Shown here piece by piece: positions 4,598 to 54,354 of a stretch of DNA of 64,000 nt (position 1 is its first letter; each line of letters starts with the position of its first letter). Location: positions 288,001-352,000 of the forward strand of contig CP000068.1 of NCBI GenBank assembly GCA_000002445.1, in the 5' to 3' direction. The notes under the pieces were generated by a model. It was not told where the DNA came from and did not search any database. It was given only the letters and a program-made list of their open reading frames with translations. The stretch is from Trypanosoma brucei. Lineage: Eukaryota. A program made the position numbers and the translations under genes.

Positions 4598-6238
4598 AGT
4601 TTTCAATTATACTTCGGTTGGTGCACATCTGACGTTGGCTGTGATAGTGCGGGTCCTGTTCTCAGGTGGTGGGGTTCACGTAGCACATACAGATAATTAT
4701 ACGAAAAGTAAAAGAAAAAAGCAAAAAGAAGCAGACAGAGAATGCTGGTTTACCGTCTGTGAATACGAAGTTTGGATATGGAGGTGACGCAAGGGGTAGA
4801 GGAAAGGAAGGGAATTCCTCTTTCTCTTTTCCTGTTTAAGGCATGGACACAGCTGACATATCAAAAAAAAAAAAAGAAATTAGATGCAAAAGAGGTGTAC
4901 GATATGCCATTATAGAGTTTTGCAAAGGTAATGCGGGGCGTTATATATATATATATGTGTGTGTGTCGCCGCAGTTTCCACACCTGGTGCCTCGGGGTTG
5001 AACCCCTTCAGATAAGCGGACGTGAGTGGAAATGTGAGACTGCAAATGAGAACTTCACCAGATGTCGCAAACAGTTTCACCCAACCATCCTATATATATA
5101 TATATATATATATATATACGCATGTTGATATATTTATTTATGTGTTCACTTGTGTAACAAAACATGCTGTTTCCCTCCCCCCGTGTATTCAGATAGAGCC
5201 CGGGGAGTATTGCACACTTGTACGAAAAAGGTTTGTGTCTTTGCATTGGCATATACGTATATATATATATATTGTGTCTACTGTCTTCAGCGGGTGATCT
5301 CGCATCTAGATTGTACCTCTGCATCTTATCATTTCACAGCTGCTACGCGAGCACTTTTCCCCTTTTATTGTTGCCGCTATCGTTTTAATGCCTTTTCCCC
5401 CTATTGATATGTCTCTTTACTTCTTTAAAAATAGGAGGGAAGTTTCTTTCGAGGCGTTTCTACAGGGTGAAAAACTGGTCTCATGTTTATGATCGCAACA
5501 TCTCTTTTACTTTGTGTTGTTACTTCTCCAAGTTACCGCTCCGCGGCGCAGCACGTAAAGCGTAACCGTTGAGTGGGAACTTGTGGAAGCAACAAGGCAG
5601 AAAGAATCACCTGCTGCTGACGTCCTGTTGAATTAAATATATCTTTAAGCTCCGACACTGTACCGAGGAATGGAAAGGCCAAACATATCATGATCCCCTT
5701 CGCGCACCTGCAGAAGGGGAGTAGATGTATTTGTTTGGTTCTGTTGTGTTGTGTTGTGTTCTGTGAGGAGTTACTTTTGTGCGGCGGATAGAAGTTGACG
5801 TATTAGGCACACCTACAGGTGATATGGTGTTTTCTGTCCCTTCCCTGTATTAAATAAGGTGGTGTGTTTCCTATTACCTTTCACCTTTCCGAACTTTGTT
5901 TGTTCGCACTGGTTTTCTTCTTTTACGGTTTATTTGTTCTTAACCTTCTGACCTTTCTGGTGCCGCCACTGTGGATTTTTCTTTTGTTCATCTGTTTTTT
6001 CTTCCTTTCCAAAGTTTGTGGCGAGGGGCGTGTGAGTGGGGGAGGGCGCCAAGTAGAGCACAAGCGCACTCCGTACGGGTGCGGCGAATCGCCTCTAATT
6101 CCCTCTTCAGTATTTTTGCCCCACCACTTCATTCGTACACTTAACGGTGGGCGTCTGTGAGTACGAAGGAGGAGAAAGCACATTCAGAACAAAAGCGGGT
6201 GATAATACACCGTAGAGTGTTTGTATATTTGTGGGCAT

Positions 6239-8466: not shown

Positions 8467-8648
8467 TTCAGCGCAGTGATTCTTATATACTCTGTCCATC
8501 GTGCTTACGATATACGACTTACTTCTGTCCGTCTTTATGGTGAGCTTATTCACGAGTTCGACCCTTGGTTCAATTACCGTGCAACGCAGTACCTCAGCGA
8601 CAACGGGTGGCGTGCTTTTTTCCAATGGTACGACTACATGAGCTGGTA
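8467..8648 (+). pseudogene. Truncated relic of an STT3 coding segment (equivalent to STT3 residues ~61-121) at the 5' boundary of the STT3 array
   Basis: Positions 8467-8648 are near-identical to 9243-9424 inside STT3A (AVILIYSVHRAYDIRLTSVRLYGELIHEFDPWFNYRATQYLSDNGWRAFFQWYDYMSWY). The frame then breaks and runs straight into sequence homologous to the inter-copy spacer (8651 = 11951 = 15251). Confidence 0.65.
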
Positions 8649-9083
8649 CCTGTTTAGTTACTACACAGTCAGTTAACCTTTTTCCCTTCTGCCACTGTGT
8701 CGGGCGCAGGTTGGTGTTCCACTGGTAACACTCCGTCATAACCAGGCGTGCACGTACCCTCACTCCCTGAAATGTGTGACACCGTGGTAAGGCCAACAAT
8801 ATGTCTTATTGAAATACTTTCTGGTAATGATGTTGTTGAATATATGTATTGTTTGTCCCCAACCGTGTTTGTGAATGCTTCATCTCGCTTGTATGCACTC
8901 GACTCTCCTCTTTCCACCACTCTCCCTAATTTGCTCAACAGTTAAGTCTGTTGTTCATAAAAAACTACGAGGAAAATACGGAACCGGAGGGGCTCGTGAC
9001 CGGTGTTGCTCGCTGAGGGAACCGTGTGTGAGCGAAGTCTAATATAATATCCGATTCGTCCTTTGGGCGTTTCTTTCTGCTTA

Positions 9084-11489
9084 ATGACGAAAGGTGGGAA
9101 AGTAGCTGTGACTAAGGGCTCAGCACAGAGTGATGGTGCTGGTGAGGGAGGGATGAGTAAGGCCAAGTCATCCACTACGTTCGTCGCCACTGGCGGTGGT
9201 TCTTTGCCTGCCTGGGCGCTAAAGGCTGTAAGCACGATTGTGAGTGCAGTGATTCTTATATACTCTGTCCATCGTGCTTACGATATACGACTTACTTCTG
9301 TCCGTCTTTATGGTGAGCTTATTCACGAGTTCGACCCTTGGTTCAATTACCGTGCAACGCAGTACCTCAGCGACAACGGGTGGCGTGCTTTTTTCCAATG
9401 GTACGACTACATGAGCTGGTACCCGCTTGGCCGACCGGTGGGCACAACCATCTTCCCCGGAATGCAGCTTACCGGTGTAGCCATTCATCGTGTGCTGGAA
9501 ATGCTCGGGCGAGGTATGTCCATCAACAATATCTGTGTGTACATTCCTGCATGGTTCGGTAGTATTGCCACTGTGTTGGCTGCTCTCATTGCGTACGAAT
9601 CATCTAATTCGCTCAGTGTCATGGCGTTTACTGCGTACTTTTTTTCCATCGTACCTGCACACCTGATGCGATCAATGGCTGGTGAATTTGACAATGAGTG
9701 TGTTGCAATGGCGGCGATGCTTCTGACGTTCTACATGTGGGTACGATCGTTACGCAGCTCAAGTTCGTGGCCCATTGGCGCTTTAGCTGGTGTGGCATAC
9801 GGGTACATGGTGTCCACGTGGGGTGGTTATATTTTCGTGCTGAACATGGTAGCCTTCCACGCTTCTGTATGTGTACTGCTTGATTGGGCTCGTGGGATAT
9901 ACAGCGTCAGTTTGCTGAGGGCGTATTCACTGTTTTTTGTCATTGGCACTGCCCTTGCGATTTGCGTACCGCCAGTGGAGTGGACGCCCTTCCGGTCGCT
10001 GGAGCAACTGACAGCATTGTTTGTCTTCGTTTTCATGTGGGCACTCCACTACTCGGAATACCTGCGTGAGCGTGCCCGAGCGCCCATTCACTCTTCTAAA
10101 GCACTTCAGATCCGTGCCCGCATTTTCATGGGCACCCTCTCCTTGCTGTTGATTGTGGCAAGTTTGCTTGCCCCGTTCGGATTCTTCAAACCTACAGCGT
10201 ACCGCGTCCGTGCGTTGTTCGTGAAACATACGCGTACCGGAAATCCCCTCGTGGATTCTGTGGCTGAGCATCGGCCGACGACTGCCGGGGCGTATCTGCG
10301 CTACTTTCATGTTTGTTACCCTCTTTGGGGGTGCGGTGGGCTCTCTATGTTGGTATTCATGAAAAAGGACCGCTGGCGCGCCATTGTTTTTCTTGCTTCA
10401 CTTTCCACTGTTACGATGTATTTCAGCGCCCGTATGTCGCGATTACTTCTGTTAGCGGGTCCCGCAGCAACGGCTTGCGCCGGCATGTTCATAGGGGGGC
10501 TTTTTGATCTGGCGCTGTCACAGTTTGGTGATTTGCATAGCCCAAAAGATGCCTCCGGCGATTCCGATCCCGCGGGAGGGTCGAAGCGGGCAAAGGGCAA
10601 AGTTGTTAATGAGCCTTCCAAAAGAGCCATCTTTAGTCACCGCTGGTTTCAACGTTTAGTGCAATCGTTGCCCGTCCCGCTACGACGTGGTATCGCGGTT
10701 GTGGTGCTCGTATGTCTCTTCGCCAATCCCATGAGACACTCATTCGAAAAGTCCTGCGAGAAAATGGCACATGCACTTTCATCTCCAAGGATCATTGCCG
10801 TGACTGATCTACCCAATGGAGAGAGAGTCCTCGCCGATGATTACTACGTGTCGTACTTGTGGCTGCGAAACAATACGCCTGAAGATGCCCGTATTCTCTC
10901 ATGGTGGGACTACGGGTATCAAATCACTGGAATTGGCAATCGCACAACCCTTGCGGACGGTAACACATGGAGTCACAAGCACATAGCAACTATTGGGAAG
11001 ATGCTTACATCCCCTGTGAAGGAGTCACATGCTCTTATACGCCATCTCGCTGATTATGTGCTGATATGGGCCGGTGAGGATCGGGGCGATTTACTTAAAT
11101 CGCCACACATGGCTCGGATAGGCAACAGTGTATATCGCGATATGTGTTCAGAAGACGATCCTAGATGCAGGCAGTTCGGCTTTGAGGGAGGTGACCTCAA
11201 TAAGCCTACGCCTATGATGCAGCGGTCCCTATTATACAATCTGCACAGGTTTGGTACGGATGGCGGGAAGACACAACTGGATAAGAACATGTTTCAGCTC
11301 GCCTACGTGTCAAAGTATGGTTTGGTGAAGATCTACAAGGTGGTGAATGTGAGTGAAGAGAGCAAGGCGTGGGTCGCAGACCCAAAGAACCGCGTATGCG
11401 ACCCGCCCGGATCTTGGATATGCGCCGGCCAGTACCCGCCAGCGAAGGAGATCCAAGACATGTTAGCGAAGCGGTTCCATTACGAATGA
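9084..11489 (+). CDS. STT3A: Oligosaccharyltransferase catalytic subunit STT3, copy 1 (STT3A-like). It is shorter than copies 2 and 3 because of an in-frame TGA.
   Basis: The ORF-track start at 9063 is TTG; the ATG is at 9084 (MTKGGKVAV...). Multi-pass transmembrane protein. The conserved WWDYGYQITGIGNRTTLADGNTW motif (the STT3 WWDYG catalytic motif) and the DK-type C-terminal domain are present. A unique central segment (~10290-10850) differs from copies B and C. Confidence 0.9.
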   Translation: MTKGGKVAVTKGSAQSDGAGEGGMSKAKSSTTFVATGGGSLPAWALKAVSTIVSAVILIYSVHRAYDIRLTSVRLYGELIHEFDPWFNYRATQYLSDNGWRAFFQWYDYMSWYPLGRPVGTTIFPGMQLTGVAIHRVLEMLGRGMSINNICVYIPAWFGSIATVLAALIAYESSNSLSVMAFTAYFFSIVPAHLMRSMAGEFDNECVAMAAMLLTFYMWVRSLRSSSSWPIGALAGVAYGYMVSTWGGYIFVLNMVAFHASVCVLLDWARGIYSVSLLRAYSLFFVIGTALAICVPPVEWTPFRSLEQLTALFVFVFMWALHYSEYLRERARAPIHSSKALQIRARIFMGTLSLLLIVASLLAPFGFFKPTAYRVRALFVKHTRTGNPLVDSVAEHRPTTAGAYLRYFHVCYPLWGCGGLSMLVFMKKDRWRAIVFLASLSTVTMYFSARMSRLLLLAGPAATACAGMFIGGLFDLALSQFGDLHSPKDASGDSDPAGGSKRAKGKVVNEPSKRAIFSHRWFQRLVQSLPVPLRRGIAVVVLVCLFANPMRHSFEKSCEKMAHALSSPRIIAVTDLPNGERVLADDYYVSYLWLRNNTPEDARILSWWDYGYQITGIGNRTTLADGNTWSHKHIATIGKMLTSPVKESHALIRHLADYVLIWAGEDRGDLLKSPHMARIGNSVYRDMCSEDDPRCRQFGFEGGDLNKPTPMMQRSLLYNLHRFGTDGGKTQLDKNMFQLAYVSKYGLVKIYKVVNVSEESKAWVADPKNRVCDPPGSWICAGQYPPAKEIQDMLAKRFHYE

Positions 11490-12202
11490 CCACATCGTTT
11501 CAATCGCCGCAATCGAAGTGACGCTTATTATCGTGCGTATATGCGTCAGATGGGTTAGCCCTGTGAAGATAAATTCGATTTGATGTGACAATGAAATAAG
11601 GTATGGGAAAGGGAGAACAAACTGATAAATGATAAGTGAATGAAGTAAAGTAAGGAAGGCTGCCACTATATGCTTTGAGATTTTCATTTAACTTTATGTG
11701 GAAAAGTTTAGTAAATAATATAACCCCTAAGAAAAGTCGATTGTATTGTGAAATTTTTTTGGTGTAAGAGCGTTGGGAAGAGGTACAAGAGTGGTCTACA
11801 TTTTCAGGCGATCTATGGTGACATCGCCGCTTGTGCTCCCGTAAGTGCGTTAGGTGGAGGTGTGCAGGTGTATCAACCTTGAAGGTTGTTCTCGCGCTGC
11901 GTTTTCCATATATAGTAGTTAACTGTGATGCTGCGCATGACTAATTTTTCTGTTTAGTCACTACACAGTCAGTTGACCTTTTTCCTTTCTGCCACTGTGT
12001 CGGGCGCAGGTTGGTGTTCCACTGGTAACACTCCGTCATAACCAGGCGTGCACGTACCCTCACTCCCTGAAATGTGTGACACCGTGGTAAGGCCAACAAT
12101 ATGTCTTATTGAAATACTTTCTGGTAATGATGTTGTTGAATATATGTATTGTTTGTCCCCAACCGTGTTTGTGAATGCTTCATCTCGCTTGTATGCACTC
12201 GA

Positions 12203-12241
12203 CTCTCCTCTTTCCACCACTCTCCCTAATTTGCTCAACAG
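12203..12241 (+). promoter_or_regulatory. Polypyrimidine tract followed by AG (candidate trans-splice acceptor region) upstream of STT3B. Equivalent tracts lie at 8903-8941 and 15503-15541.
   Basis: ctctcctctttccaccactctccctaatttgctcaacag lies about 140 nt upstream of the ATG. It is repeated exactly in each 3300-bp unit. Confidence 0.5.
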
Positions 12242-12383
12242 TTAAGTCTGTTGTTCATAAAAAACTACGAGGAAAATACGGAACCGGAGGGGCTCGTGAC
12301 CGGTGTTGCTCGCTGAGGGAACCGTGTGTGAGCGAAGTCTAATATAATATCCGATTCGTCCTTTGGGCGTTTCTTTCTGCTTA

Positions 12384-14849
12384 ATGACGAAAGGTGGGAA
12401 AGTAGCTGTGACTAAGGGCTCAGCACAGAGTGATGGTGCTGGTGAGGGAGGGATGAGTAAGGCCAAGTCATCCACTACGTTCGTCGCCACTGGCGGTGGT
12501 TCTTTGCCTGCCTGGGCGCTAAAGGCTGTAAGCACGGTTGTGAGTGCAGTGATTCTTATATACTCTGTCCATCGTGCTTACGATATACGACTTACTTCTG
12601 TCCGTCTTTATGGTGAGCTTATTCACGAGTTCGACCCTTGGTTCAATTACCGTGCAACGCAGTACCTCAGCGACAACGGGTGGCGTGCTTTTTTCCAATG
12701 GTACGACTACATGAGCTGGTACCCGCTTGGCCGACCGGTGGGCACAACCATCTTCCCCGGAATGCAGCTTACCGGTGTAGCCATTCATCGTGTGCTGGAA
12801 ATGCTCGGGCGAGGTATGTCCATCAACAATATCTGTGTGTACATTCCTGCATGGTTCGGTAGTATTGCCACTGTGTTGGCTGCTCTCATTGCGTACGAAT
12901 CATCTAATTCGCTCAGTGTCATGGCGTTTACTGCGTACTTTTTTTCCATCGTACCTGCACACCTGATGCGATCAATGGCTGGTGAATTTGACAATGAGTG
13001 TGTTGCAATGGCGGCGATGCTTCTGACGTTCTACATGTGGGTACGATCGTTACGCAGCTCAAGTTCGTGGCCCATTGGCGCTTTAGCTGGTGTGGCATAC
13101 GGGTACATGGTGTCCACGTGGGGTGGTTATATTTTCGTGCTGAACATGGTAGCCTTCCACGCTTCTGTATGTGTACTGCTTGATTGGGCTCGTGGGACAT
13201 ACAGCGTCAGTTTGCTGAGGGCGTATTCACTGTTTTTTGTCATTGGCACTGCCCTTGCGATTTGCGTACCACCAGTGGAGTGGACGCCCTTCCGGTCGCT
13301 GGAGCAACTGACAGCATTGTTTGTCTTCGTTTTCATGTGGGCACTCCACTACTCGGAATACCTGCGTGAGCGTGCCCGAGCGCCCATTCACTCTTCTAAA
13401 GCACTTCAGATCCGTGCCCGCATTTTCATGGGCACCCTCTCCTTGCTGTTGATTGTAGCTATCTACCTATTTTCGACAGGATACTTCAGGCCGTTTTCTT
13501 CTCGTGTCCGTGCGTTGTTCGTGAAACATACGCGTACCGGAAATCCCCTCGTGGATTCTGTGGCTGAGCACCATCCGGCGTCGAATGATGATTTCTTTGG
13601 TTACCTTCATGTATGTTACAACGGCTGGATAATTGGCTTTTTCTTCATGTCCGTGTCGTGCTTTTTCCATTGTACACCGGGAATGTCGTTCCTGCTGTTG
13701 TACTCTATACTTGCGTACTACTTCTCTCTCAAGATGAGTCGTCTGCTGTTACTTTCTGCACCTGTGGCTTCCATACTCACTGGCTATGTTGTGGGATCTA
13801 TTGTTGACCTCGCAGCAGATTGTTTCGCCGCTTCCGGAACAGAGCACGCCGACAGTAAGGAGCATCAAGGGAAAGCCCGTGGTAAGGGACAGAAGGAACA
13901 AATCACTGTCGAGTGTGGGTGCCATAATCCCTTCTACAAATTATGGTGCAATTCATTTTCCTCCCGCCTGGTAGTTGGTAAGTTTTTTGTCGTTGTTGTC
14001 CTTTCCATCTGTGGACCCACATTTCTTGGGTCTAACTTCCGGATATATTCTGAGCAATTCGCAGACAGCATGTCGAGCCCCCAGATTATAATGAGGGCAA
14101 CTGTCGGTGGACGACGAGTTATCTTGGATGATTACTACGTGTCGTACTTGTGGCTGCGAAACAATACGCCTGAAGATGCCCGTATTCTCTCATGGTGGGA
14201 CTACGGGTATCAAATCACTGGAATTGGCAATCGCACAACCCTTGCGGATGGTAACACATGGAATCACGAGCACATAGCAACTATTGGGAAGATGCTTACA
14301 TCCCCTGTGAAGGAGTCACATGCTCTTATACGCCATCTCGCTGATTATGTGCTGATATGGGCCGGTTATGATGGCAGCGATTTACTTAAATCGCCACACA
14401 TGGCTCGGATAGGCAACAGTGTATATCGCGATATATGCTCAGAGGATGATCCGCTGTGTACGCAGTTCGGGTTTTATAGTGGTGACTTCAGTAAACCTAC
14501 GCCTATGATGCAGCGGTCCCTATTATACAATCTGCACAGGTTTGGTACGGATGGCGGGAAGACACAACTGGATAAGAACATGTTTCAGCTCGCCTACGTG
14601 TCAAAGTATGGTTTGGTGAAGATCTACAAGGTGATGAATGTGAGTGAAGAGAGCAAGGCGTGGGTTGCAGACCCAAAGAACCGTAAGTGCGATGCACCTG
14701 GATCTTGGATATGCACCGGCCAGTACCCGCCAGCGAAGGAGATCCAAGACATGTTAGCGAAGAGGATTGACTACGAACAACTCGAGGATTTCAACCGCCG
14801 CAATCGAAGTGACGCTTATTATCGTGCGTATATGCGTCAGATGGGTTAG
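12384..14849 (+). CDS. STT3B: Oligosaccharyltransferase catalytic subunit STT3, copy 2 (STT3B-like)
   Basis: ATG at 12384 (the track start at 12363 is TTG). 821-aa frame with the WWDYGYQ motif. Full-length C-terminus ...AKRIDYEQLEDFNRRNRSDAYYRAYMRQMG. Confidence 0.9.
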   Translation: MTKGGKVAVTKGSAQSDGAGEGGMSKAKSSTTFVATGGGSLPAWALKAVSTVVSAVILIYSVHRAYDIRLTSVRLYGELIHEFDPWFNYRATQYLSDNGWRAFFQWYDYMSWYPLGRPVGTTIFPGMQLTGVAIHRVLEMLGRGMSINNICVYIPAWFGSIATVLAALIAYESSNSLSVMAFTAYFFSIVPAHLMRSMAGEFDNECVAMAAMLLTFYMWVRSLRSSSSWPIGALAGVAYGYMVSTWGGYIFVLNMVAFHASVCVLLDWARGTYSVSLLRAYSLFFVIGTALAICVPPVEWTPFRSLEQLTALFVFVFMWALHYSEYLRERARAPIHSSKALQIRARIFMGTLSLLLIVAIYLFSTGYFRPFSSRVRALFVKHTRTGNPLVDSVAEHHPASNDDFFGYLHVCYNGWIIGFFFMSVSCFFHCTPGMSFLLLYSILAYYFSLKMSRLLLLSAPVASILTGYVVGSIVDLAADCFAASGTEHADSKEHQGKARGKGQKEQITVECGCHNPFYKLWCNSFSSRLVVGKFFVVVVLSICGPTFLGSNFRIYSEQFADSMSSPQIIMRATVGGRRVILDDYYVSYLWLRNNTPEDARILSWWDYGYQITGIGNRTTLADGNTWNHEHIATIGKMLTSPVKESHALIRHLADYVLIWAGYDGSDLLKSPHMARIGNSVYRDICSEDDPLCTQFGFYSGDFSKPTPMMQRSLLYNLHRFGTDGGKTQLDKNMFQLAYVSKYGLVKIYKVMNVSEESKAWVADPKNRKCDAPGSWICTGQYPPAKEIQDMLAKRIDYEQLEDFNRRNRSDAYYRAYMRQMG

Positions 14850-15683
14850 CCCTGTGAAGATAAATTCGATTTGATGTGACAATGAAATAAGGTATGGGAA
14901 AGGGAGAACAAACTGATAAATGATAAGTGAATGAAGTAAAGTAAGGAAGGCTGCCACTATATGCTTTGAGATTTTCATTTAACTATGTTATGCTGTTGTT
15001 AGGGGTTAGAATCTTTTTTCTTGGTTGCCAATTAGGTATGCATTTCTTTGTATTGGAGAATGTGAGGTAATCTTTTGGGGAGTGACAGCGTTTGGTACAT
15101 TTATCAGGCGATCTATGGTGACATCGCCGCTTGTGCTCCCGTAAGTGCGTTAGGTGGAGGTGTGCAGGTGTATCAACCTTGAAGGTTGTTCTCGCGCTGC
15201 GTTTTCCATATATAGTAGTTAACTGTGATGCTGCGCATGACTAATTTTTCTGTTTAGTCACTACACAGTCAGTTAACCTTTTTCCCTTCTGCCACTGTGT
15301 CGGGCGCAGGTTGGTGTTCCACTGGTAACACTCCGTCATAACCAGGCGTGCACGTACCCTCACTCCCTGAAATGTGTGACACCGTGGTAAGGCCAACAAT
15401 ATGTCTTATTGAAATACTTTCTGGTAATGATGTTGTTGAATATATGTATTGTTTGTCCCCAACCGTGTTTGTGAATGCTTCATCTCGCTTGTATGCACTC
15501 GACTCTCCTCTTTCCACCACTCTCCCTAATTTGCTCAACAGTTAAGTCTGTTGTTCATAAAAAACTACGAGGAAAATACGGAACCGGAGGGGCTCGTGAC
15601 CGGTGTTGCTCGCTGAGGGAACCGTGTGTGAGCGAAGTCTAATATAATATCCGATTCGTCCTTTGGGCGTTTCTTTCTGCTTA

Positions 15684-18149
15684 ATGACGAAAGGTGGGAA
15701 AGTAGCTGTGACTAAGGGCTCAGCACAGAGTGATGGTGCTGGTGAGGGAGGGATGAGTAAGGCCAAGTCATCCACTACGTTCGTCGCCACTGGCGGTGGT
15801 TCTTTGCCTGCCTGGGCGCTAAAGGCTGTAAGCACGGTTGTGAGTGCAGTGATTCTTATATACTCTGTCCATCGTGCTTACGATATACGACTTACTTCTG
15901 TCCGTCTTTATGGTGAGCTTATTCACGAGTTCGACCCTTGGTTCAATTACCGTGCAACGCAGTACCTCAGCGACAACGGGTGGCGTGCTTTTTTCCAATG
16001 GTACGACTACATGAGCTGGTACCCGCTTGGCCGACCGGTGGGCACAACCATCTTCCCCGGAATGCAGCTTACCGGTGTAGCCATTCATCGTGTGCTGGAA
16101 ATGCTCGGGCGAGGTATGTCCATCAACAATATCTGTGTGTACATTCCTGCATGGTTCGGTAGTATTGCCACTGTGTTGGCTGCTCTCATTGCGTACGAGT
16201 CATCTAATTCGCTCAGTGTCATGGCGTTTACTGCGTACTTTTTTTCCATCGTACCTGCACACCTGATGCGATCAATGGCTGGTGAATTTGACAATGAGTG
16301 TGTTGCAATGGCGGCGATGCTTCTGACGTTCTACATGTGGGTACGATCGTTACGCAGCTCAAGTTCGTGGCCCATTGGCGCTTTAGCTGGTGTGGCATAC
16401 GGGTACATGGTGTCCACGTGGGGTGGTTATATTTTCGTGCTGAACATGGTAGCCTTCCACGCTTCTGTATGTGTACTGCTTGATTGGGCTCGTGGGACAT
16501 ACAGCGTCAGTTTGCTGAGGGCGTATTCACTGTTTTTTGTCATTGGCACTGCCCTTGCGATTTGCGTACCACCAGTGGAGTGGACGCCCTTCCGGTCGCT
16601 GGAGCAACTGACAGCATTGTTTGTCTTCGTTTTCATGTGGGCACTCCACTACTCGGAATACCTGCGTGAGCGTGCCCGAGCGCCCATTCACTCTTCTAAA
16701 GCACTTCAGATCCGTGCCCGCATTTTCATGGGCACCCTCTCCTTGCTGTTGATTGTGGCTATCTACCTATTTTCGACAGGATACTTCAGGTCGTTTTCTT
16801 CTCGTGTCCGTGCGTTGTTCGTGAAACATACGCGTACCGGAAATCCCCTCGTGGATTCTGTGGCTGAGCATCGGCCGACGACTGCCGGGGCCTTCCTACG
16901 TCATCTTCATGTGTGTTACAACGGCTGGATAATTGGCTTTTTCTTCATGTCCGTGTCGTGCTTTTTCCATTGTACACCGGGAATGTCGTTCCTGCTGTTG
17001 TACTCTATACTTGCGTACTACTTCTCTCTCAAGATGAGTCGTCTGCTGTTACTTTCTGCACCTGTGGCTTCCATACTCACTGGCTATGTTGTGGGATCTA
17101 TTGTTGACCTCGCAGCAGATTGTTTCGCCGCTTCCGGAACAGAGCACGCCGACAGTAAGGAGCATCAAGGGAAAGCCCGTGGTAAGGGACAAAAGAGACA
17201 AATCACTGTCGAGTGTGGGTGCCATAATCCCTTCTACAAATTATGGTGCAATTCATTTTCCTCCCGCCTGGTAGTTGGTAAGTTTTTTGTCGTTGTTGTC
17301 CTTTCCATCTGTGGACCCACATTTCTTGGGTCTGAGTTTAGGGCTCATTGCGAACGTTTCTCCGTAAGTGTTGCTAATCCGCGTATTATATCGAGTATTA
17401 GGCACTCCGGTAAGTTGGTTCTTGCCGATGATTACTACGTGTCGTACTTGTGGCTGCGAAACAATACGCCTGAAGATGCCCGTATTCTCTCATGGTGGGA
17501 CTACGGGTATCAAATCACTGGAATTGGCAATCGCACAACCCTTGCGGACGGTAACACATGGAATCACGAGCACATAGCAACTATTGGGAAGATGCTTACA
17601 TCCCCTGTGAAGGAGTCACATGCTCTTATACGCCATCTCGCTGATTATGTGCTGATATGGGCCGGTGAGGATCGGGGCGATTTACGTAAGTCACGGCATA
17701 TGGCTCGGATAGGCAACAGTGTATATCGCGATATGTGTTCAGAAGACGATCCGCTGTGTACGCAGTTCGGGTTTTATAGTGGTGACTTCAATAAACCTAC
17801 GCCTATGATGCAGCGGTCCCTATTATACAATCTGCACAGGTTTGGTACGGATGGCGGGAAGACACAACTGGATAAGAACATGTTTCAGCTCGCCTACGTG
17901 TCAAAGTATGGTTTGGTGAAGATCTACAAGGTGATGAATGTGAGTGAAGAGAGCAAGGCGTGGGTTGCAGACCCAAAGAACCGTAAGTGCGATGCACCTG
18001 GATCTTGGATATGCGCCGGCCAGTACCCGCCAGCGAAGGAGATCCAAGACATGTTAGCGAAGAGGATTGACTACGAACAACTCGAGGATTTCAATCGCCG
18101 CAATCGAAGTGACGCTTATTATCGTGCGTATATGCGTCAGATGGGTTAG
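15684..18149 (+). CDS. STT3C: Oligosaccharyltransferase catalytic subunit STT3, copy 3 (STT3C-like). It is a mosaic of A-like and B-like segments.
   Basis: ATG at 15684. The N-terminal 370 aa are identical to B. Segment AEHRPTTAGA matches A, the following YNGWIIGFFFMSVSCFFHC... matches B, and there is a unique stretch SEFRAHCERFSVSVANPRIISSIRHSGKLV. The WWDYGYQ motif is present. Confidence 0.9.
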   Translation: MTKGGKVAVTKGSAQSDGAGEGGMSKAKSSTTFVATGGGSLPAWALKAVSTVVSAVILIYSVHRAYDIRLTSVRLYGELIHEFDPWFNYRATQYLSDNGWRAFFQWYDYMSWYPLGRPVGTTIFPGMQLTGVAIHRVLEMLGRGMSINNICVYIPAWFGSIATVLAALIAYESSNSLSVMAFTAYFFSIVPAHLMRSMAGEFDNECVAMAAMLLTFYMWVRSLRSSSSWPIGALAGVAYGYMVSTWGGYIFVLNMVAFHASVCVLLDWARGTYSVSLLRAYSLFFVIGTALAICVPPVEWTPFRSLEQLTALFVFVFMWALHYSEYLRERARAPIHSSKALQIRARIFMGTLSLLLIVAIYLFSTGYFRSFSSRVRALFVKHTRTGNPLVDSVAEHRPTTAGAFLRHLHVCYNGWIIGFFFMSVSCFFHCTPGMSFLLLYSILAYYFSLKMSRLLLLSAPVASILTGYVVGSIVDLAADCFAASGTEHADSKEHQGKARGKGQKRQITVECGCHNPFYKLWCNSFSSRLVVGKFFVVVVLSICGPTFLGSEFRAHCERFSVSVANPRIISSIRHSGKLVLADDYYVSYLWLRNNTPEDARILSWWDYGYQITGIGNRTTLADGNTWNHEHIATIGKMLTSPVKESHALIRHLADYVLIWAGEDRGDLRKSRHMARIGNSVYRDMCSEDDPLCTQFGFYSGDFNKPTPMMQRSLLYNLHRFGTDGGKTQLDKNMFQLAYVSKYGLVKIYKVMNVSEESKAWVADPKNRKCDAPGSWICAGQYPPAKEIQDMLAKRIDYEQLEDFNRRNRSDAYYRAYMRQMG

Positions 18150-19205
18150 CCCTGTGAAGATAAATTCGATTTGATGTGACAATGAAATAAGGTATGGGAA
18201 AGGGAGAACAAACTGATAAATGACAAGTGAATGAAGTAAAGTAAGGAAGGCTGCCACTATATGCTTTGAGATTTTCATTTAACTATGTTATGCTGTTGTT
18301 AGGGGTTAGAATCTTTTTTCTTGGTTGCCAATTATGTATACATTTATTTTGTGGTTGTTGTTTTTCTTTTTAATATTTTTAGTCTTTTTTCTTCGGTGAC
18401 GTTATTTGTTCGTATTAAATATGTTTGTTGTGCTGGATTCTTGTGGTTTGTGCTACTGTTGCCTGCTACACTTTGTTCATGTTTATTCTTTGTACTTGCA
18501 TTTGCGTACGCATTGATGCATGCATATTTACATGTGTTTGTATATGTTTTTTTTCTAGGTCGTATTTGTTTGTCTGAATGCTTGTGTCTGCTTTGTTTTT
18601 AGTTCTCTCTGTTCTGTTGATTCGAGAGGACTCTGATTTGGCTTCCGCACATCTGATGGTACCTTGTGTTTGTGCTTGTGGAGGTTGCGTATTTACTAGT
18701 GGCATTATCCTTACCCATGTTTCCGTCTTTGAAGTTTACTTACGCTTACTCCTGTGTACCGCTGTATGTGCGGTTGATTTCGAGTCTCTTTTTCAAAAAA
18801 AATTCTGTTATTTTTATTGGTTTCGTTTGGACCATGTGCGAACGAATTGTCATTATCGGCTCCCTTTCCATCTTTTTTTCCGGTTGTTTTGCGCAGTTGT
18901 TAAGCTAATTGTTTTCTTTTAGACTATTTTTTCCCGTGTTGTTAACTTCTGCTATGTTACTTTAACTTCGTGAAGTGTTTCGACTCGAGCGAGAACACCG
19001 TCCGTTTTGACTGCGCATCGAAGTGAATTAAAACATGCATGCAGATGTACTTATGTCCATATCGACACGTATTTAGGGCCTGGTTGTTTAACATGCTCTT
19101 CCCTTTTAGCTATTTATTTTTTCTGCGTATTTCCTCGGTTGCGCCTCAACGCTAGGATCCCTCTAATGTCACGTCTTATCCGCATTTGTGTTCTTTTCTC
19201 GTTAC

Positions 19206-20680: not shown

Positions 20681-21366
20681 TTTTGGGAAATGAAACACGC
20701 ACAAGCGTACACCTGCGCGAAGGGAGTATGACAATATTCTTTGCATTATCGTTTGCCACAGCTTGCATCTTTCTGTTGTTTCTCTCCATTTTGTGAATAA
20801 GTTATTGGCGTGCAAATATATTTACATATACGTGCATGTGCATTGTTGTGCTTCCAGGAGCACAGTCAGAAACGTATTGTTGTCTCCGCAGTGGAAGTGG
20901 TATACGTTTTGTCGTACTGCTCGTGTAGGACTACGACTGCGCACGCCCAGCTACCACTTTTCTTTCTTCCCCGTTGTTGTGTTTGGTCGTGCAGTTTTTC
21001 CACTTTCACATACCATAGCATTAGTAATCAAAGCGATACAGTACTTACGGGGGCCTCAGTTTAACTTTTGTCGCACGTTTTAAATAGAGGACGTTCTACA
21101 TACATACATACTCGCGCGTGTGTGTTTCCTTCGTACACAGAATAATATAGTTCTATACGGCCACAAGGAATACAGTGCGTGAGAAAAACCAAAGGATTAT
21201 ATTAAAAGGAATAGGAGTAACAGGTGAAAAGGGAGGAGTTTCGAGTATTTGAGTAAAAAAAGTGTACGTAACAAAGAAATTCATCGAAAGTAAACGATCA
21301 GATATTAAACTAGCACATAAGTGAGTTAGCGTACCTTATACATACATTTATATTTATTTGTACGTA

Positions 21367-24300
21367 ATGGTAGACGGGCGATCTTCTGCATCAATTGTTG
21401 CCGTTGATCCCGAAAGGGCTGCGCGTGAGCGCGACGCAGCAGCGCGTGCCCTTCTTCAAGACAGTCCGCTACACACGACCATGCAATATGCAACGTCTGG
21501 TCTTGAGCTTACCGTTCCCTACGCACTTAAGGTGGTTGCCAGTGCTGACACCTTCGATCGCGCTAAGGAGGTTGCCGATGAGGTGCTACGCTGCGCATGG
21601 CAACTCGCCGACACCGTGTTGAACAGTTTCAACCCGAACAGTGAGGTTTCACTCGTGGGTCGCCTGCCTGTGGGGCAGAAGCACCAAATGTCTGCTCCAC
21701 TCAAGCGTGTGATGGCATGCTGCCAGCGTGTGTATAACTCATCGGCTGGATGTTTTGATCCCTCCACAGCACCCGTCGCAAAGGCGCTGCGTGAGATTGC
21801 ACTGGGGAAGGAGCGGAACAATGCTTGTCTGGAGGCACTTACTCAAGCGTGTACGCTTCCCAACAGTTTTGTGATCGATTTCGAAGCTGGAACTATCAGC
21901 CGTAAGCACGAGCATGCGTCTCTGGACCTAGGTGGGGTTAGCAAAGGTTATATCGTTGATTATGTCATTGATAATATCAATGCTGCTGGATTTCAAAACG
22001 TTTTTTTTGACTGGGGTGGAGACTGCCGTGCGAGTGGTATGAACGCGCGCAATACCCCGTGGGTTGTTGGTATAACTCGCCCTCCGTCCCTTGATATGCT
22101 CCGCAACCCGCCAAAGGAAGCGTCGTATATCAGCGTTATCTCTCTCGACAACGAGGCCCTTGCCACGAGTGGCGATTATGAAAACTTAATATACACCGCT
22201 GATGATAAACCCCTTACCTGCACTTATGACTGGAAGGCGAAGGAACTGATGAAACCTTCTCAGTCCAATATCGCGCAGGTATCGGTTAAATGTTATAGCG
22301 CCATGTACGCTGACGCGCTTGCGACTGCGTGTTTCATAAAGCGGGATCCCGCGAAGGTTCGACAGCTGCTGGACGGTTGGCGTTACGTGCGTGATACAGT
22401 GAGAGATTACAGGGTCTACGTTCGTGAAAATGAGCGAGTAGCGAAGATGTTTGAAATCGCCACAGAGGATGCGGAAATGAGGAAGAGGCGGATCAGCAAC
22501 ACACTTCCCGCTCGTGTCATTGTGGTGGGCGGTGGTCTCGCGGGTTTGTCCGCGGCCATCGAAGCTGCAGGATGCGGTGCTCAGGTTGTGCTTATGGAGA
22601 AGGAGGCGAAGCTCGGAGGCAACAGCGCCAAGGCGACATCTGGTATCAACGGATGGGGCACACGTGCTCAGGCGAAGGCAAGCATTGTGGATGGTGGGAA
22701 ATACTTCGAGCGTGACACATACAAGTCTGGTATCGGGGGTAACACCGATCCTGCCCTTGTGAAGACACTTTCTATGAAAAGTGCTGACGCTATTGGGTGG
22801 CTGACCTCGTTGGGTGTACCGCTGACGGTATTGTCACAGCTTGGGGGTCACAGCCGCAAGCGCACACATCGGGCACCGGATAAGAAAGATGGTACACCTC
22901 TACCTATCGGATTTACAATCATGAAAACCCTCGAGGATCACGTGCGTGGTAACCTTTCTGGCCGCATCACCATAATGGAAAACTGCAGTGTAACGTCGTT
23001 GCTCAGTGAGACGAAGGAACGGCCAGATGGCACTAAACAGATACGAGTTACTGGTGTGGAGTTCACGCAGGCTGGCAGTGGGAAGACGACCATACTTGCA
23101 GATGCTGTCATCCTTGCCACTGGTGGATTTTCTAACGACAAAACTGCAGACTCCCTGCTTCGTGAGCACGCCCCGCACTTGGTCAACTTCCCTACGACGA
23201 ATGGCCCGTGGGCGACAGGTGATGGCGTGAAACTTGCACAGCGACTTGGCGCTCAACTGGTGGATATGGACAAGGTCCAGTTGCATCCGACAGGCCTCAT
23301 CAACCCGAAGGATCCAGCGAACCCTACAAAGTTCCTTGGACCTGAGGCGCTACGTGGATCCGGTGGCGTTTTGTTAAACAAGCAAGGCAAGCGCTTCGTT
23401 AATGAACTTGACCTCCGTTCTGTGGTATCGAAAGCCATCATGGAACAGGGTGCGGAATATCCTGGATCGGGTGGTAGCATGTTCGCCTACTGTGTGTTGA
23501 ATGCTGCGGCGCAGAAGCTCTTTGGTGTCAGCTCACACGAGTTCTACTGGAAGAAGATGGGTCTCTTCGTGAAGGCTGACACCATGAGGGACCTCGCTGC
23601 ACTCATTGGGTGCCCAGTGGAATCTGTGCAGCAGACGCTGGAGGAGTACGAGCGGCTCTCCACATCACAGCGTTCCTGCCCCATCACGCGCAAGAGCGTC
23701 TATCCGTGCGTGCTCGGCACTAAGGGCCCCTACTACGTCGCCTTCGTGACACCTTCGATTCACTACACAATGGGTGGATGTCTCATCTCGCCTTCTGCTG
23801 AAATACAAATGAAGAACACATCATCACGCGCTCCACTGAGTCACAGCAACCCAATCCTCGGGTTATTTGGTGCCGGTGAGGTAACGGGTGGTGTGCACGG
23901 TGGGAACCGGTTGGGCGGCAATTCGCTGCTTGAGTGCGTCGTGTTTGGGAGAATTGCGGGTGATCGGGCCTCGACCATCCTTCAGAGGAAGTCCTCAGCA
24001 CTTTCCTTCAAGGTGTGGACGACCGTGGTGCTGCGTGAAGTACGCGAAGGTGGTGTGTACGGTGCTGGGTCCCGCGTGCTTCGCTTTAATTTACCCGGGG
24101 CGCTGCAACGGTCTGGTCTGAGCCTCGGCCAATTTATCGCAATTCGTGGTGATTGGGACGGTCAGCAGTTGATCGGTTATTACAGTCCCATCACGCTGCC
24201 AGATGATCTTGGCATGATCGATATACTCGCCCGCAGTGATAAGGGGACGCTGAGGGAGTGGATTTCCGCTCTGGAGCCGGGTGACGCTGTGGAGATGAAG

Positions 24301-24795
24301 GCATGCGGTGGTCTGGTGATTGAGCGCCGCTTAAGCGATAAGCACTTTGTGTTCATGGGACACATTATCAACAAGCTTTGTCTAATTGCTGGTGGAACGG
24401 GTGTGGCACCGATGCTGCAAATAATCAAAGCAGCCTTTATGAAACCCTTCATTGACACATTGGAGAGCGTTCATCTCATCTATGCCGCGGAGGACGTAAC
24501 GGAGTTGACGTATCGCGAGGTGCTGGAGGAGCGCCGTCGTGAGTCACGTGGAAAGTTCAAGAAAACGTTTGTCCTCAACCGGCCCCCGCCCCTATGGACT
24601 GATGGTGTTGGCTTCATCGACCGGGGCATCCTCACAAATCATGTGCAGCCGCCATCTGACAACCTGCTGGTGGCCATATGCGGACCACCGGTAATGCAGC
24701 GCATTGTAAAGGCGACCCTGAAGACTTTGGGCTACAACATGAACCTTGTGAGGACTGTGGATGAAACGGAGCCGAGCGGCTCATCCAAAATTTGA
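21367..24795 (+). CDS. FRDg: NADH-dependent fumarate reductase, glycosomal type. It has an N-terminal ApbE-like domain, a central FAD-binding fumarate-reductase domain, a C-terminal cytochrome-b5-reductase-like domain and a C-terminal SKI PTS1.
   Basis: ATG at 21367 (the track start at 21358 is TTG), giving 1142 aa. ApbE-like DLGGVSKGYIVDYV; FAD motif RVIVVGGGLAGLSAAIEAAGCGAQVVLMEKE; soluble fumarate-reductase/flavocytochrome region (HPTGLINPKDP, GGNRLGGNSLLECVVFGR); FNR-like C-terminus (LIAGGTGVAPMLQI). Ends ...GSSKI* (PTS1). Confidence 0.9.
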   Translation: MVDGRSSASIVAVDPERAARERDAAARALLQDSPLHTTMQYATSGLELTVPYALKVVASADTFDRAKEVADEVLRCAWQLADTVLNSFNPNSEVSLVGRLPVGQKHQMSAPLKRVMACCQRVYNSSAGCFDPSTAPVAKALREIALGKERNNACLEALTQACTLPNSFVIDFEAGTISRKHEHASLDLGGVSKGYIVDYVIDNINAAGFQNVFFDWGGDCRASGMNARNTPWVVGITRPPSLDMLRNPPKEASYISVISLDNEALATSGDYENLIYTADDKPLTCTYDWKAKELMKPSQSNIAQVSVKCYSAMYADALATACFIKRDPAKVRQLLDGWRYVRDTVRDYRVYVRENERVAKMFEIATEDAEMRKRRISNTLPARVIVVGGGLAGLSAAIEAAGCGAQVVLMEKEAKLGGNSAKATSGINGWGTRAQAKASIVDGGKYFERDTYKSGIGGNTDPALVKTLSMKSADAIGWLTSLGVPLTVLSQLGGHSRKRTHRAPDKKDGTPLPIGFTIMKTLEDHVRGNLSGRITIMENCSVTSLLSETKERPDGTKQIRVTGVEFTQAGSGKTTILADAVILATGGFSNDKTADSLLREHAPHLVNFPTTNGPWATGDGVKLAQRLGAQLVDMDKVQLHPTGLINPKDPANPTKFLGPEALRGSGGVLLNKQGKRFVNELDLRSVVSKAIMEQGAEYPGSGGSMFAYCVLNAAAQKLFGVSSHEFYWKKMGLFVKADTMRDLAALIGCPVESVQQTLEEYERLSTSQRSCPITRKSVYPCVLGTKGPYYVAFVTPSIHYTMGGCLISPSAEIQMKNTSSRAPLSHSNPILGLFGAGEVTGGVHGGNRLGGNSLLECVVFGRIAGDRASTILQRKSSALSFKVWTTVVLREVREGGVYGAGSRVLRFNLPGALQRSGLSLGQFIAIRGDWDGQQLIGYYSPITLPDDLGMIDILARSDKGTLREWISALEPGDAVEMKACGGLVIERRLSDKHFVFMGHIINKLCLIAGGTGVAPMLQIIKAAFMKPFIDTLESVHLIYAAEDVTELTYREVLEERRRESRGKFKKTFVLNRPPPLWTDGVGFIDRGILTNHVQPPSDNLLVAICGPPVMQRIVKATLKTLGYNMNLVRTVDETEPSGSSKI

Positions 24796-42135: not shown

Positions 42136-42170
42136 TTCTTATATATATATATATATATATGCATATATAT
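42136..42170. repeat. (TA)n microsatellite, one of the intergenic (TA)n runs in this window. Others lie at 4942-4967 (TA/GT), 5091-5117, 25565-25582, 38262-38281, 40195-40212, 47280-47304, 53064-53092, 54316-54351, 54606-54641 and 57264-57296 (CT/TA).
   Basis: Read directly from the sequence. Confidence 0.9.
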
Positions 42171-42598
42171 ATTTTCCTTTCGATAAACAGGACGCCTCCC
42201 TCCACTTCTTTTGTTTTTTTTTTTGCCCTGCCGCGCTCGGTGTGGCAGTTTGATGTCTTGTTGTGTTCTGCAGTTCGCGCGGATATGTGTCCCCACGTTA
42301 TGTGAGCGGGCCGATCTTATTTTTTTCCCTTTTCCAGCTTTCTTTCCCCCTTCCTTGTGCTCGATTCTGCGTGTCTCGTGTCTGGCGATAAAGGGTAGCA
42401 AAACGGGCTCACCAAATCGAAGCGCCGCACTGAGGTCACTGCAGGGCGGGGGCTTGTGTTGTGCGGTCCGCCCATACAAGTGTTTGTGGGTTTACGGTTC
42501 GCTGGGGCAGTACAAGTAGTACCGGCACCGCTGCCATTGTCCCTGTCAGTTGTAGCGAAGAAGGAGGAGGGTAAAATATATAATAGCAACACAAGAAA

Positions 42599-53032: not shown

Positions 53033-53064
53033 TCGGTGACACTCTCTGCCGTGGGTCTGTCCAA

Positions 53065-53095
<31 letters not shown>

Positions 53096-54313: not shown

Positions 54314-54354
<41 letters not shown>

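What the first reader, a model, noticed from the sequence alone, without database searches (positions are those of the whole stretch)
8651..18335. Exact 3300-bp-period tandem array of three STT3 paralogues with mosaic (gene-conversion) patterning
Three complete STT3 genes sit head-to-tail with unit starts at 8651, 11951 and 15251. Copies B and C are nearly identical. Copy A shares the N-terminal ~370 aa (2 substitutions) but has a different ~190-aa central segment and scattered C-terminal differences. Copy C matches A at AEHRPTTAGA and at EDRGDL...RDMCSEDDP, matches B immediately after (YNGWIIGFFF..., LCTQFGFYSGDF), and carries its own unique patch (SEFRAHCERFSVSVANPRIISSIRHSGKLV). This interleaved sharing is the signature of repeated partial gene conversion. 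In trypanosomes, single-subunit STT3 paralogues have distinct sequon and glycan-donor specificities, so the swapped cassettes are likely to matter functionally.
Basis: partly seen in the sequence, partly recalled or inferred. Interest (0 to 1): 0.7.

Follow-up and report, generated by a model that had tools for sequence, protein, structure and literature searches.

The report
Trypanosoma brucei STT3A/B/C tandem gene array
This is the well-studied trio of N-glycosylation enzyme genes (TbSTT3A, B and C) on Trypanosoma brucei chromosome 5; the patchwork sharing between copies is real and comes from recombination between them, but the array, the mosaic and its functional meaning are already published.

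Summary
Three head-to-tail STT3 genes (CDS 9084-11489, 12384-14849, 15684-18149) repeat with an exact 3300-bp period. Their proteins match T. b. brucei TREU927 XP_844763/4/5 exactly, which are TbSTT3A, B and C (Tb927.5.890/900/910). A 1.5-kb 5' block is 99.6-99.8% identical in all three copies. A central cassette of about 0.65 kb is only about 30-50% identical between A and B/C. TbSTT3C has a B-type cassette with a short A-identical tract (codons 396-402, including a synonymous site), further A-like tracts in the 3' part, and a private patch. The blockiness is highly non-random: no shuffle out of 20,000 reached it. Comparison with T. vivax, T. melophagium, T. cruzi and Leishmania shows the same architecture. 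In those species the flanks are about 100% identical between paralogues of one species, while the A-type central cassettes form a clade across species (100% bootstrap). This is concerted evolution around a protected specificity cassette.

None of the core is new. The array and its truncated upstream pseudogene, the hybrid specificity of TbSTT3C and the role of Arg397/Arg406 are published. So are recombination tests on this very array (PHI p=0.001, GARD 9 breakpoints) and laboratory-selected STT3B/C chimeras. Verdict: real, interpretation supported, already known.

The parts
8470..8650 (+). 181-bp relic of STT3 coding sequence (equivalent to CDS nt 160-340, aa 54-113), joined directly to the upstream block of unit A. 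This is the 'truncated TbSTT3 pseudogene'.
   Evidence: 99.4% identical to 9243-9423, 12543-12723 and 15843-16023. Junction read. Also present in T. b. gambiense and T. equiperdum, where it is called as an 89-aa STT3 fragment. Mentioned in PMC5724017.
8651..10156 (+). Homogenised 5' block of unit A: 434 nt upstream plus codons 1-358. The equivalents are 11951-13456 in B and 15251-16756 in C.
   Evidence: Only 6, 5 and 3 differences in 1506 nt for A/B, A/C and B/C; profile.
9084..11489 (+). TbSTT3A (Tb927.5.890), 801 aa.
   Evidence: Exact match to XP_844763. Pfam STT3 and core domain. Catalytic motifs present.
10160..10832 (+). A-type central specificity cassette (aa 360-583), with an invariant island at 10206-10270 that holds the SVAEH motif.
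   Evidence: About 30-50% nt identity to B/C. Clusters with T. vivax, T. cruzi, T. melophagium and T. theileri A-type cassettes at 100% bootstrap.
11472..11489 (+). Short substituted patch that creates the early TGA stop of A. Downstream, the last codons of B/C persist as A's 3' UTR.
   Evidence: Alignment.
11694..11803 (.). A-B spacer, unique sequence of 110 nt.
   Evidence: No similarity to the B-C spacer or elsewhere in the window.
12384..14849 (+). TbSTT3B (Tb927.5.900), 821 aa, with the B-type cassette at 13460-14123.
   Evidence: Exact match to XP_844764.
15046..15103 (.). B-C spacer, unique sequence.
15684..18149 (+). TbSTT3C (Tb927.5.910), 821 aa: a mosaic on a B-type backbone.
   Evidence: Exact match to XP_844765; pattern map.
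16871..16899 (+). A-derived tract in C (codons 396-406, HRPTTAGA..R). The first 21 nt are identical to A, including a synonymous site.
   Evidence: 14 sites where A = C and B differs, within 29 nt; codon view. Holds Arg397/Arg406, implicated in preference for acidic sequons (PMC5724017).
17334..17424 (+). C-private patch (aa 551-581), at the start of the lumenal domain.
   Evidence: 50 B/C differences in 91 nt. All three copies differ here. Conserved in C-type genes of T. b. gambiense, T. b. rhodesiense and T. equiperdum.
17667..17747 (+). 3' mosaic in C: an A-like tract (17667-17676, EDRG), a C-private tract (17686-17699) and a second A-like tract (17735-17747).
   Evidence: Runs of 5 sites matching A, 6 sites private to C, then 4 sites matching A; permutation test.
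18150..18345 (+). Proximal 3' UTR of C, shared with B. The array ends at about 18345.

Best explanation
This is the TbSTT3 locus of Trypanosoma brucei brucei TREU927 chromosome 5. It consists of a 181-bp STT3 relic followed by three tandem genes for single-subunit oligosaccharyltransferases, TbSTT3A, TbSTT3B and TbSTT3C.

Homologous recombination between the copies keeps two regions nearly identical. It works mainly through short non-reciprocal gene-conversion tracts, with occasional unequal crossing-over. The two regions are the 5' 1.5 kb (upstream region plus TM1-9) and the 3' 0.85 kb (catalytic lumenal domain plus proximal 3' UTR).

A central cassette of about 0.65 kb escapes homogenisation. 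By inference it covers the C-terminal half of external loop 5, TM10-13 and the start of the lumenal domain. It exists as two ancient types, A and B, which carry the differences in donor and acceptor specificity. Selection preserves them, and their own divergence also blocks conversion.

TbSTT3C is a B-type gene that received a short A tract at codons 396-402(-406) and further A-like tracts in the 3' part. It also keeps a private patch. That mix explains its published hybrid specificity.

Shown here: the gene identities, the mosaic map, its non-randomness, and the conflict between flank and cassette trees. Inferred: the direction and mechanism of each transfer, and the mapping onto structural elements.
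For: - Identity: the three proteins match XP_844763/4/5 exactly. The neighbouring genes (Kri1, rhodanese, fumarate reductases) fit chromosome 5 and are syntenic in T. melophagium.
- Family: Pfam STT3 plus core domain. All catalytic motifs are intact in all three copies. The closest solved homologue is human STT3B, 6S7T.
- Mosaic: site-pattern map; permutation tests, no shuffle of 20,000 reached the observed values; tract identical to A including a synonymous codon.
- Homogenisation, not constraint: non-coding upstream sequence and synonymous sites are identical.
- Same profile elsewhere: 100% nt identity in the flanks and 30-50% in the centre in T. melophagium and T. vivax, and at protein level in T. 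cruzi and Leishmania.
- Tree conflict: flanks group by species (99.5-100% bootstrap); the cassette groups by type (A-type clade 100%).
- Recent homogenisation: CDS positions 288, 735 and 1053 (counted from the ATG) are C/G/C in all three TREU927 copies but T/A/A in the T. b. gambiense and T. equiperdum copies.
- Literature: tandem array, truncated pseudogene, hybrid TbSTT3C and Arg397/Arg406 (PMC2722254, PMC5724017); PHI p=0.001 and GARD 9 breakpoints for this array (PMC2854126); STT3B/C chimeras selected under lectin pressure (PMC4351956).
Against: - With only three sequences, the direction of each transfer cannot be proven.
- Part of C's likeness to A is not nucleotide-identical (Leu405 CTA versus CTG; Arg406 CGT versus CGC). 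It could be convergent point mutation.
- The C-private patch has no donor in the window. It may mark an old third lineage rather than a conversion product.
- The cross-isolate evidence for shuffled 3' tracts is weak. It rests on assemblies in which the array is collapsed (T. b. gambiense 1 copy, T. equiperdum 2 copies) and on PCR-cloned T. b. rhodesiense sequences. Either source can create artificial chimeras.
- Both periods equal 3300 bp even though A's cassette is 9 nt longer and the A-B spacer 9 nt shorter. This is unexplained and is probably coincidence.
Confidence: 0.9

Rival explanations
1. Assembly artefact: the exact 3300-bp period and the near-identical blocks reflect a mis-expanded or wrongly stitched repeat in the reference, and the mosaics are chimeric consensus sequence.
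For: Other assemblies of the same locus are clearly collapsed or mis-scaffolded: one unit in T. b. gambiense DAL972, two units plus a stray piece after a 100-N gap in T. equiperdum. Two exactly equal periods look suspicious.
Against: A-, B- and C-type proteins are recovered independently from other isolates with the same cassette layout. The three genes were separately cloned, expressed, knocked down and deleted as an array in strain 427 (PMC2722254). Chimera-specific PCR distinguishes the canonical genes (PMC4351956, PMC5035034). The same A-then-B tandem arrangement occurs in a syntenic position in T. melophagium.
Confidence: 0.02
2. Recent triplication followed by patchy positive selection. 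The copies are young, the divergent patches arose by rapid point substitution, and no exchange between copies occurred.
For: The patches lie where specificity is determined, so selection is plausible. Some A-like residues of C use different codons from A.
Against: The A and B cassettes are at saturation (about 30-50% nt identity) next to blocks with 0.2-0.4% divergence. Each cassette has orthologues in other species, with 100% bootstrap for the A clade. The 21-nt tract of C is identical to A including a synonymous site. Isolate-specific substitutions are shared by all paralogues of one genome.
Confidence: 0.03
3. Three ancient paralogue lineages (A, B and C) that are all homogenised outside small selected islands. 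On this view C is not a B copy that received A tracts but an old third type, and its A-like residues are retained or convergent.
For: The C-private patch is as far from B as from A (38-41% aa identity). It shares features with B-type genes of stercorarian species: 'HC', 'VSV.NPRII', and 50% identity to T. rangeli. C-type is conserved across T. brucei subspecies.
Against: Over 142 aa of the cassette (409-550), C is 99% identical to B. No C-type orthologue was seen in other species. The exact nucleotide identity with A at codons 396-402 points to a recent transfer. This rival still requires gene conversion; it differs only in history.
Confidence: 0.15
4. Reciprocal unequal crossing-over alone, without gene conversion, generated the chimeric copies.
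For: Lectin-selected lines carry STT3B/C fusion genes of the kind that unequal crossing-over produces (PMC4351956). The 181-bp relic and copy-number differences between species (T. vivax 1 B + 4 A) show that arrays expand and contract.
Against: Several tracts are 10-95 nt long and are flanked on both sides by sequence of the other type. Single crossovers cannot produce this; it needs non-reciprocal patches or double events.
Confidence: 0.05

Closest known systems
TbSTT3A/TbSTT3B/TbSTT3C of Trypanosoma brucei (Izquierdo et al. 2009, PMC2722254; Jinnelov et al. 2017, PMC5724017)
   Same: Identical. The three window proteins are the TREU927 reference sequences. The tandem order, the preceding truncated pseudogene, the greater similarity of C to B, and the Arg397/Arg406 residues shared by A and C are all as published.
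   Different: Nothing differs. The papers I could search describe function rather than the nucleotide-level tract map.
Recombination mosaics in T. brucei tandem gene arrays (Jackson 2007, PMC1855330; Jackson et al. 2010, PMC2854126, Table 2, array 36 'Oligosaccharyl transferase subunit Tb927.5.890')
   Same: The same array was tested with PHI (p=0.001) and GARD (9 breakpoints). The general conclusion is that arrays evolve by partial gene conversion and concerted evolution.
   Different: That survey compared only T. b. brucei and T. b. gambiense copies. From what I read, it did not describe the cross-genus persistence of the A and B cassettes.
Leishmania major STT3 paralogues, and the STT3 arrays of T. 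vivax, T. melophagium and T. cruzi
   Same: Same design: several single-subunit STT3 genes whose flanks are about 100% identical within a species and whose central 200 aa are only 10-50% identical.
   Different: Copy numbers differ: T. vivax has 1 B + 4 A with a 2918-bp period, T. melophagium has 1 A + 1 B. In several species the first 40-80 aa also differ between paralogues, which is not so in T. brucei.
Mammalian STT3A/STT3B isoforms
   Same: Two catalytic isoforms divide the labour between early and late, or selective and broad, sequon use. The closest solved structure is human STT3B.
   Different: The mammalian isoforms are unlinked genes and are diverged along their whole length. They work in multi-subunit complexes and show no concerted evolution.
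FRDg/FRDm2 fumarate reductase pair immediately downstream (PMC8065229)
   Same: Adjacent paralogues share a 1450-bp block at 100% identity. That block serves as a platform for homologous recombination, which yields a selectable chimeric gene.
   Different: Two genes with one shared internal block and divergent ends. This is the reverse layout of the STT3 units.

Membership tests
STT3/AglB/PglB oligosaccharyltransferase catalytic subunit | Pfam STT3 N-terminal membrane domain (PF02516) plus the STT3/PglB/AglB core domain (PF21436), both above the gathering score | tested here: met
   All three ORFs score 151-158 bits (cutoff 24.5) and about 30 bits (cutoff 23).
STT3/AglB/PglB oligosaccharyltransferase catalytic subunit | Catalytic and substrate-binding motifs: acidic EL1 motif (HEFDPW), second acidic motif (FDNE), SVSE/TIXE-type motif in EL5 (SVAEH), WWDYG, and the DK motif | tested here: met
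   All motifs are present at equivalent positions in A, B and C. They align with those of human STT3B.
STT3/AglB/PglB oligosaccharyltransferase catalytic subunit | Oligosaccharyltransferase activity | not testable with these tools
   Shown experimentally for these exact genes in the literature (PMC2722254, PMC5421464).
TbSTT3A/B/C locus of T. brucei chromosome 5 | Sequence identity with the reference gene products and the expected neighbouring genes | tested here: met
   Exact-sequence look-up returns XP_844763, XP_844764 and XP_844765 on a 1,608,198-bp TREU927 contig. Neighbours.
Concerted evolution by inter-paralogue gene conversion | Paralogues within a genome are closer to each other than to orthologues in the converted regions, but not in the unconverted region | tested here: met
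   Flank tree groups by species (99.5-100% bootstrap). Cassette tree groups by type (A clade 100%). Isolate-specific sites are shared by all TREU927 copies.
Concerted evolution by inter-paralogue gene conversion | Identity extends to synonymous and non-coding positions | tested here: met
   The 434-nt upstream block and codons 1-358 show 3-6 differences in 1506 nt. Flanks are 100% identical in T. vivax and T. melophagium.
Concerted evolution by inter-paralogue gene conversion | Discrete tracts with breakpoints, i.e. non-random clustering of site patterns | tested here: met
   Runs and 3SEQ-style permutation tests: no shuffle of 20,000 reached the observed values. GARD itself was not run here; 9 breakpoints were published in PMC2854126.
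Concerted evolution by inter-paralogue gene conversion | Direct observation of transfer events | not testable with these tools
   The literature reports STT3B/C chimeras in lectin-resistant lines. It also reports a TbSTT3B N627S+E629K double change, which equals the A-type residues (PMC4351956; my comparison).

The most novel reading that the evidence does not exclude
The least-documented reading is that the T. brucei mosaic is one instance of a design conserved across Trypanosomatidae. In this design a central 'specificity cassette' of about 200 aa, in A and B types, has been kept apart since before the radiation of the genus Trypanosoma, and possibly since before the split from Leishmania. 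Everything around it is continuously overwritten by conversion. TbSTT3C would then be a natural domain swap made by a tract of 95 nt or less. I found no paper in the searchable library that states this trans-specific cassette pattern, but the library lacks key subscription papers (Nasab 2008, Poljak 2017, Castillo-Acosta 2013).
Probability: 0.4. Interest if true: 0.45.

Novelty: already known. Interest (0 to 1): 0.22.

Why it matters
The locus matters biologically. TbSTT3A and TbSTT3B decide which N-glycan type each site of the parasite's surface coat receives. Both are needed for infection in mice, and rearrangements in this array give resistance to carbohydrate-binding trypanocides. All of this is published.

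This analysis adds four things:
- an exact tract map in window coordinates;
- a statistical check of the mosaic;
- the point that the big A/B difference is an ancient protected cassette, not a recent swap;
- evidence that the same flank-homogenised, cassette-preserved design recurs in other trypanosomatids.

The design offers natural chimeras for mapping donor and acceptor specificity. It is also a clean case of selection holding a segment against gene conversion.

Tried and rejected
- Global three-way MAFFT of whole units misaligned the central cassette. I replaced it with a protein-guided codon alignment.
- The 3SEQ-style maximum descent over the whole unit was uninformative (P=0.25), because 335 of 380 sites favour B. 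The maximum ascent and the runs tests were informative.
- I looked for a donor of the C-private patch and for relatives of the two unique spacers within the window. None was found.
- I tried to use the T. b. gambiense and T. equiperdum loci to measure copy-number polymorphism. I rejected this because both assemblies are collapsed or mis-scaffolded at this repeat.
- A first attempt at pairwise profiles timed out and was rerun.
- Three papers could not be read: Castillo-Acosta 2013 (Mol Microbiol), Poljak 2017 (JBC) and Nasab 2008 (and searches).
- I considered and rejected assembly artefact, recent duplication with patchy selection, and crossover-only models (see the rival explanations).
Full report
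**What is there.**
The repeat finder reports three copies spaced exactly 3300 and 3300 bp apart, starting at 8650/11950/15250. Three long + strand ORFs lie in them. Read from their first ATG, they encode proteins of 801, 821 and 821 aa: 9084-11489, 12384-14849 and 15684-18149. All three hit Pfam STT3 (PF02516, 151-158 bits) and the STT3/PglB/AglB core domain. All three keep the catalytic motifs HEFDPW, FDNE, SVAEH, WWDYG and the DK motif. The closest solved structure is human STT3B, 6S7T.

An exact-sequence look-up shows that the three proteins are XP_844763, XP_844764 and XP_844765 of Trypanosoma brucei brucei TREU927, on a 1.6-Mb contig. These are Tb927.5.890.900 and .910, known as TbSTT3A, B and C (gene numbers as in PMC2722254 and PMC5724017). 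The neighbouring genes (Kri1, rhodanese, two fumarate reductases) fit this locus.

**Anatomy.**
- *Extent of homology.* Three-way homology runs from 8651 to 11693 in unit A. B and C share a longer unit: 11804-15045 matches 15104-18345, with no indels and 101 substitutions. Of these, 84 fall in three patches.
- *5' block.* The block 8651-10156 (434 nt upstream plus codons 1-358) differs at only 3-6 of 1506 positions between any two copies.
- *Central cassette.* From codon 360 to about 583, A is only about 30-50% identical in nucleotides to B/C and about 31% in protein. The exception is a 65-nt invariant island that encodes RVRALFVKHTRTGNPLVDSVAEH.
- *3' part.* The 3' 0.85 kb is 92-96% identical, and its differences lie in short runs.
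- *A's short C-terminus.* A ends 23 codons early because a short substituted patch creates a TGA. The last codons of B/C survive downstream as A's 3' UTR.
- *Spacers.* The A-B spacer (11694-11803) and the B-C spacer (15046-15103) are unique sequence.
- *Relic.* Directly left of unit A lies a 181-bp relic of STT3 coding sequence, 8470-8650. It is 99.4% identical to CDS nt 160-340 and is joined to the upstream block with one base of overlap. This is the truncated pseudogene mentioned in PMC5724017.

**The mosaic.**
I built a protein-guided codon alignment and classed every variable site by which copy is the odd one out. The counts are 335 sites where A is odd, 45 where B is odd (A = C), 32 where C is odd, and 20 where all three differ.

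The sites where A = C are clustered:
- 14 sites within 29 nt at 10271-10299 (C coordinates 16871-16899, codons 396-406);
- 4 sites at 10833-10958;
- 5 sites at 11076-11085 (EDRG);
- 4 sites at 11144-11156.

The C-private sites cluster at 17334-17424 and 17686-17699.

Shuffling the order of the site patterns gives 133 runs on average against 67 observed for the whole unit. For the 3' part it gives 29.3 against 10. A 3SEQ-style maximum ascent is also extreme. No shuffle out of 20,000 reached the observed values.

At codon level, C reads CAT CGG CCG ACG ACT GCC GGG, exactly as A does. This includes a synonymous CAT where B has CAC. On both sides C is B-type. The next few A-like residues of C use other codons (Leu405 CTA versus CTG; Arg406 CGT versus CGC, with B GGT). 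Those residues may be later mutations or convergence.

**Why this is recombination and not constraint or young age.**
Identity in the 5' block covers non-coding and synonymous positions, while the cassette beside it is at saturation. A single duplication date cannot give both.

I compared other species, using proteins and loci. T. melophagium has an A-type gene followed by a B-type gene in the same syntenic position. T. vivax has one B-type and four A-type copies with a 2918-bp period. In both species the paralogues are 100% identical in nucleotides across the 5' and 3' parts and 30-50% identical in a central stretch of about 0.6 kb. At protein level, T. cruzi, L. major and L. donovani show the same profile.

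Neighbour-joining trees with 200 bootstraps conflict. The flanks group paralogues by species (99.5-100%). The cassette places TbSTT3A with the A-type copies of T. vivax, T. cruzi, T. melophagium and T. theileri (100%). It places TbSTT3B/C with T. congolense and T. vivax B-type copies (89%).

The A/B cassette split is therefore older than the genus radiation, and the flanks have been homogenised independently in each lineage. Homogenisation is also recent. CDS positions 288, 735 and 1053 (counted from the ATG) are C/G/C in all three TREU927 copies and T/A/A in the T. b. gambiense and T. equiperdum copies.

**Mechanism proposed.**
The copies recombine with each other. Short non-reciprocal conversion tracts explain patches of 10-95 nt that are flanked on both sides by the other type. 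Unequal crossing-over explains the relic and the copy-number differences between species.

The cassette escapes homogenisation because it carries the functional differences and because its divergence leaves no homology for strand invasion. The invariant SVAEH island offers a short landing site, and that is exactly where the A tract of C begins.

The mapping of the cassette is an inference from three sources: the alignment to human STT3B, a hydropathy scan and the established 13-TM topology of STT3. On that basis the cassette covers the second half of external loop 5, TM10-13, a cytosolic low-complexity loop and the first residues of the lumenal domain.

**What is already known.**
- Izquierdo et al. 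2009 (PMC2722254) described the three tandem genes. They showed that A transfers Man5GlcNAc2 to acidic sites and B transfers Man9GlcNAc2 broadly. They suggested that C has hybrid properties.
- Jinnelov et al. 2017 (PMC5724017) mention the preceding truncated pseudogene. They point to Arg397, Arg406 and an Arg at the position of Gln567 of B as residues shared by A and C. They report that the companion chimera study assigns acceptor specificity to the Arg397/Arg406 region.
- Jackson et al. 2010 (PMC2854126, Table 2, array 36) tested this very array for recombination. They list 3 copies in T. b. brucei and 1 in T. b. gambiense, PHI p=0.001 and GARD 9 breakpoints.
- Castillo-Acosta et al. 2015 (PMC4351956) found STT3B/C chimeric genes in lectin-resistant lines.

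The finding is real and correctly interpreted, but it is not new.

**Caveats.**
- The T. b. gambiense and T. equiperdum assemblies are collapsed at this locus: one and two units respectively, plus a stray piece after an N gap. They say nothing reliable about copy number.
- The shuffled 3' tracts seen between isolates could partly be consensus or PCR artefacts. An example is the A-type tract at CDS positions 2301-2316 in both T. equiperdum copies.
- The C-private patch has no donor in the window. It may be a remnant of an older third lineage.
- Both periods equal 3300 bp although A's cassette is 9 nt longer and the A-B spacer 9 nt shorter than their B counterparts. I regard this as coincidence.

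**Verdict.**
Novelty: already known. The only part I could not find in print is the cross-species persistence of the two cassette types inside homogenised flanks. It is a modest extension, and the library I could search lacks several key papers.

Noticed in passing
window 8470-8650: A 181-bp in-frame relic of STT3 coding sequence (aa 54-113), 99.4% identical to the live copies, fused to the upstream block of unit A. It is also present in T. b. gambiense (L001 9390-9567) and T. equiperdum (L002 6087-6267). It is probably the stump of a lost fourth copy.
   Followed up: yes
window 22511-23960 and 26567-28016: The two adjacent fumarate reductase genes (21358-24795 with an ApbE domain; 26137-28770 without) share a 1450-bp block at 100% identity, with no detectable similarity outside it. 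This is the FRDg/FRDm2 pair. Its identical block is a published recombination platform (PMC8065229).
   Followed up: partly
window 10972 and 10977 (A) versus 14263 and 14268 (B): The double change N627S+E629K reported in TbSTT3B of two lectin-resistant lines (PMC4351956) turns B into exactly the A-type residues at these two sites, which lie 6 nt apart. That suggests an A-to-B micro-conversion, or a PCR chimera, rather than two point mutations. The paper does not say this.
   Followed up: partly
window 8650-15250 (both unit periods): A-to-B and B-to-C spacing are both exactly 3300 bp, even though A's cassette is 9 nt longer than B's and the non-homologous A-B spacer is 9 nt shorter than the B-C one. 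No explanation was found; it is probably coincidence.
   Followed up: partly
L003 1265-21085 (T. vivax): The T. vivax array has one B-type STT3, a gap of about 6.4 kb, and then four A-type copies with a 2918-bp period. Three of the A-type copies encode proteins of identical length. The content of the gap was not examined.
   Followed up: no
L001 and L002 (T. b. gambiense DAL972, T. equiperdum): The STT3 array is collapsed to one and two units, with no A-type cassette. In T. equiperdum an extra B-type piece follows a 100-N gap about 9 kb downstream (L002 21198-22466). These are most likely assembly problems at a repeat with 1.5-kb identical blocks.
   Followed up: partly
window 11472-11558: TbSTT3A's shorter C-terminus comes from a substituted patch of about 25 nt that introduces TGA. 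The following 59 nt still read as the B/C coding sequence, with one difference, but now lie in A's 3' UTR.
   Followed up: yes
window 5091-5118, 42140-42172, 53064-53095, 54314-54351, 54607-54634: Five (TA)n/(AT)n microsatellites of 14-19 units lie in intergenic regions.
   Followed up: no
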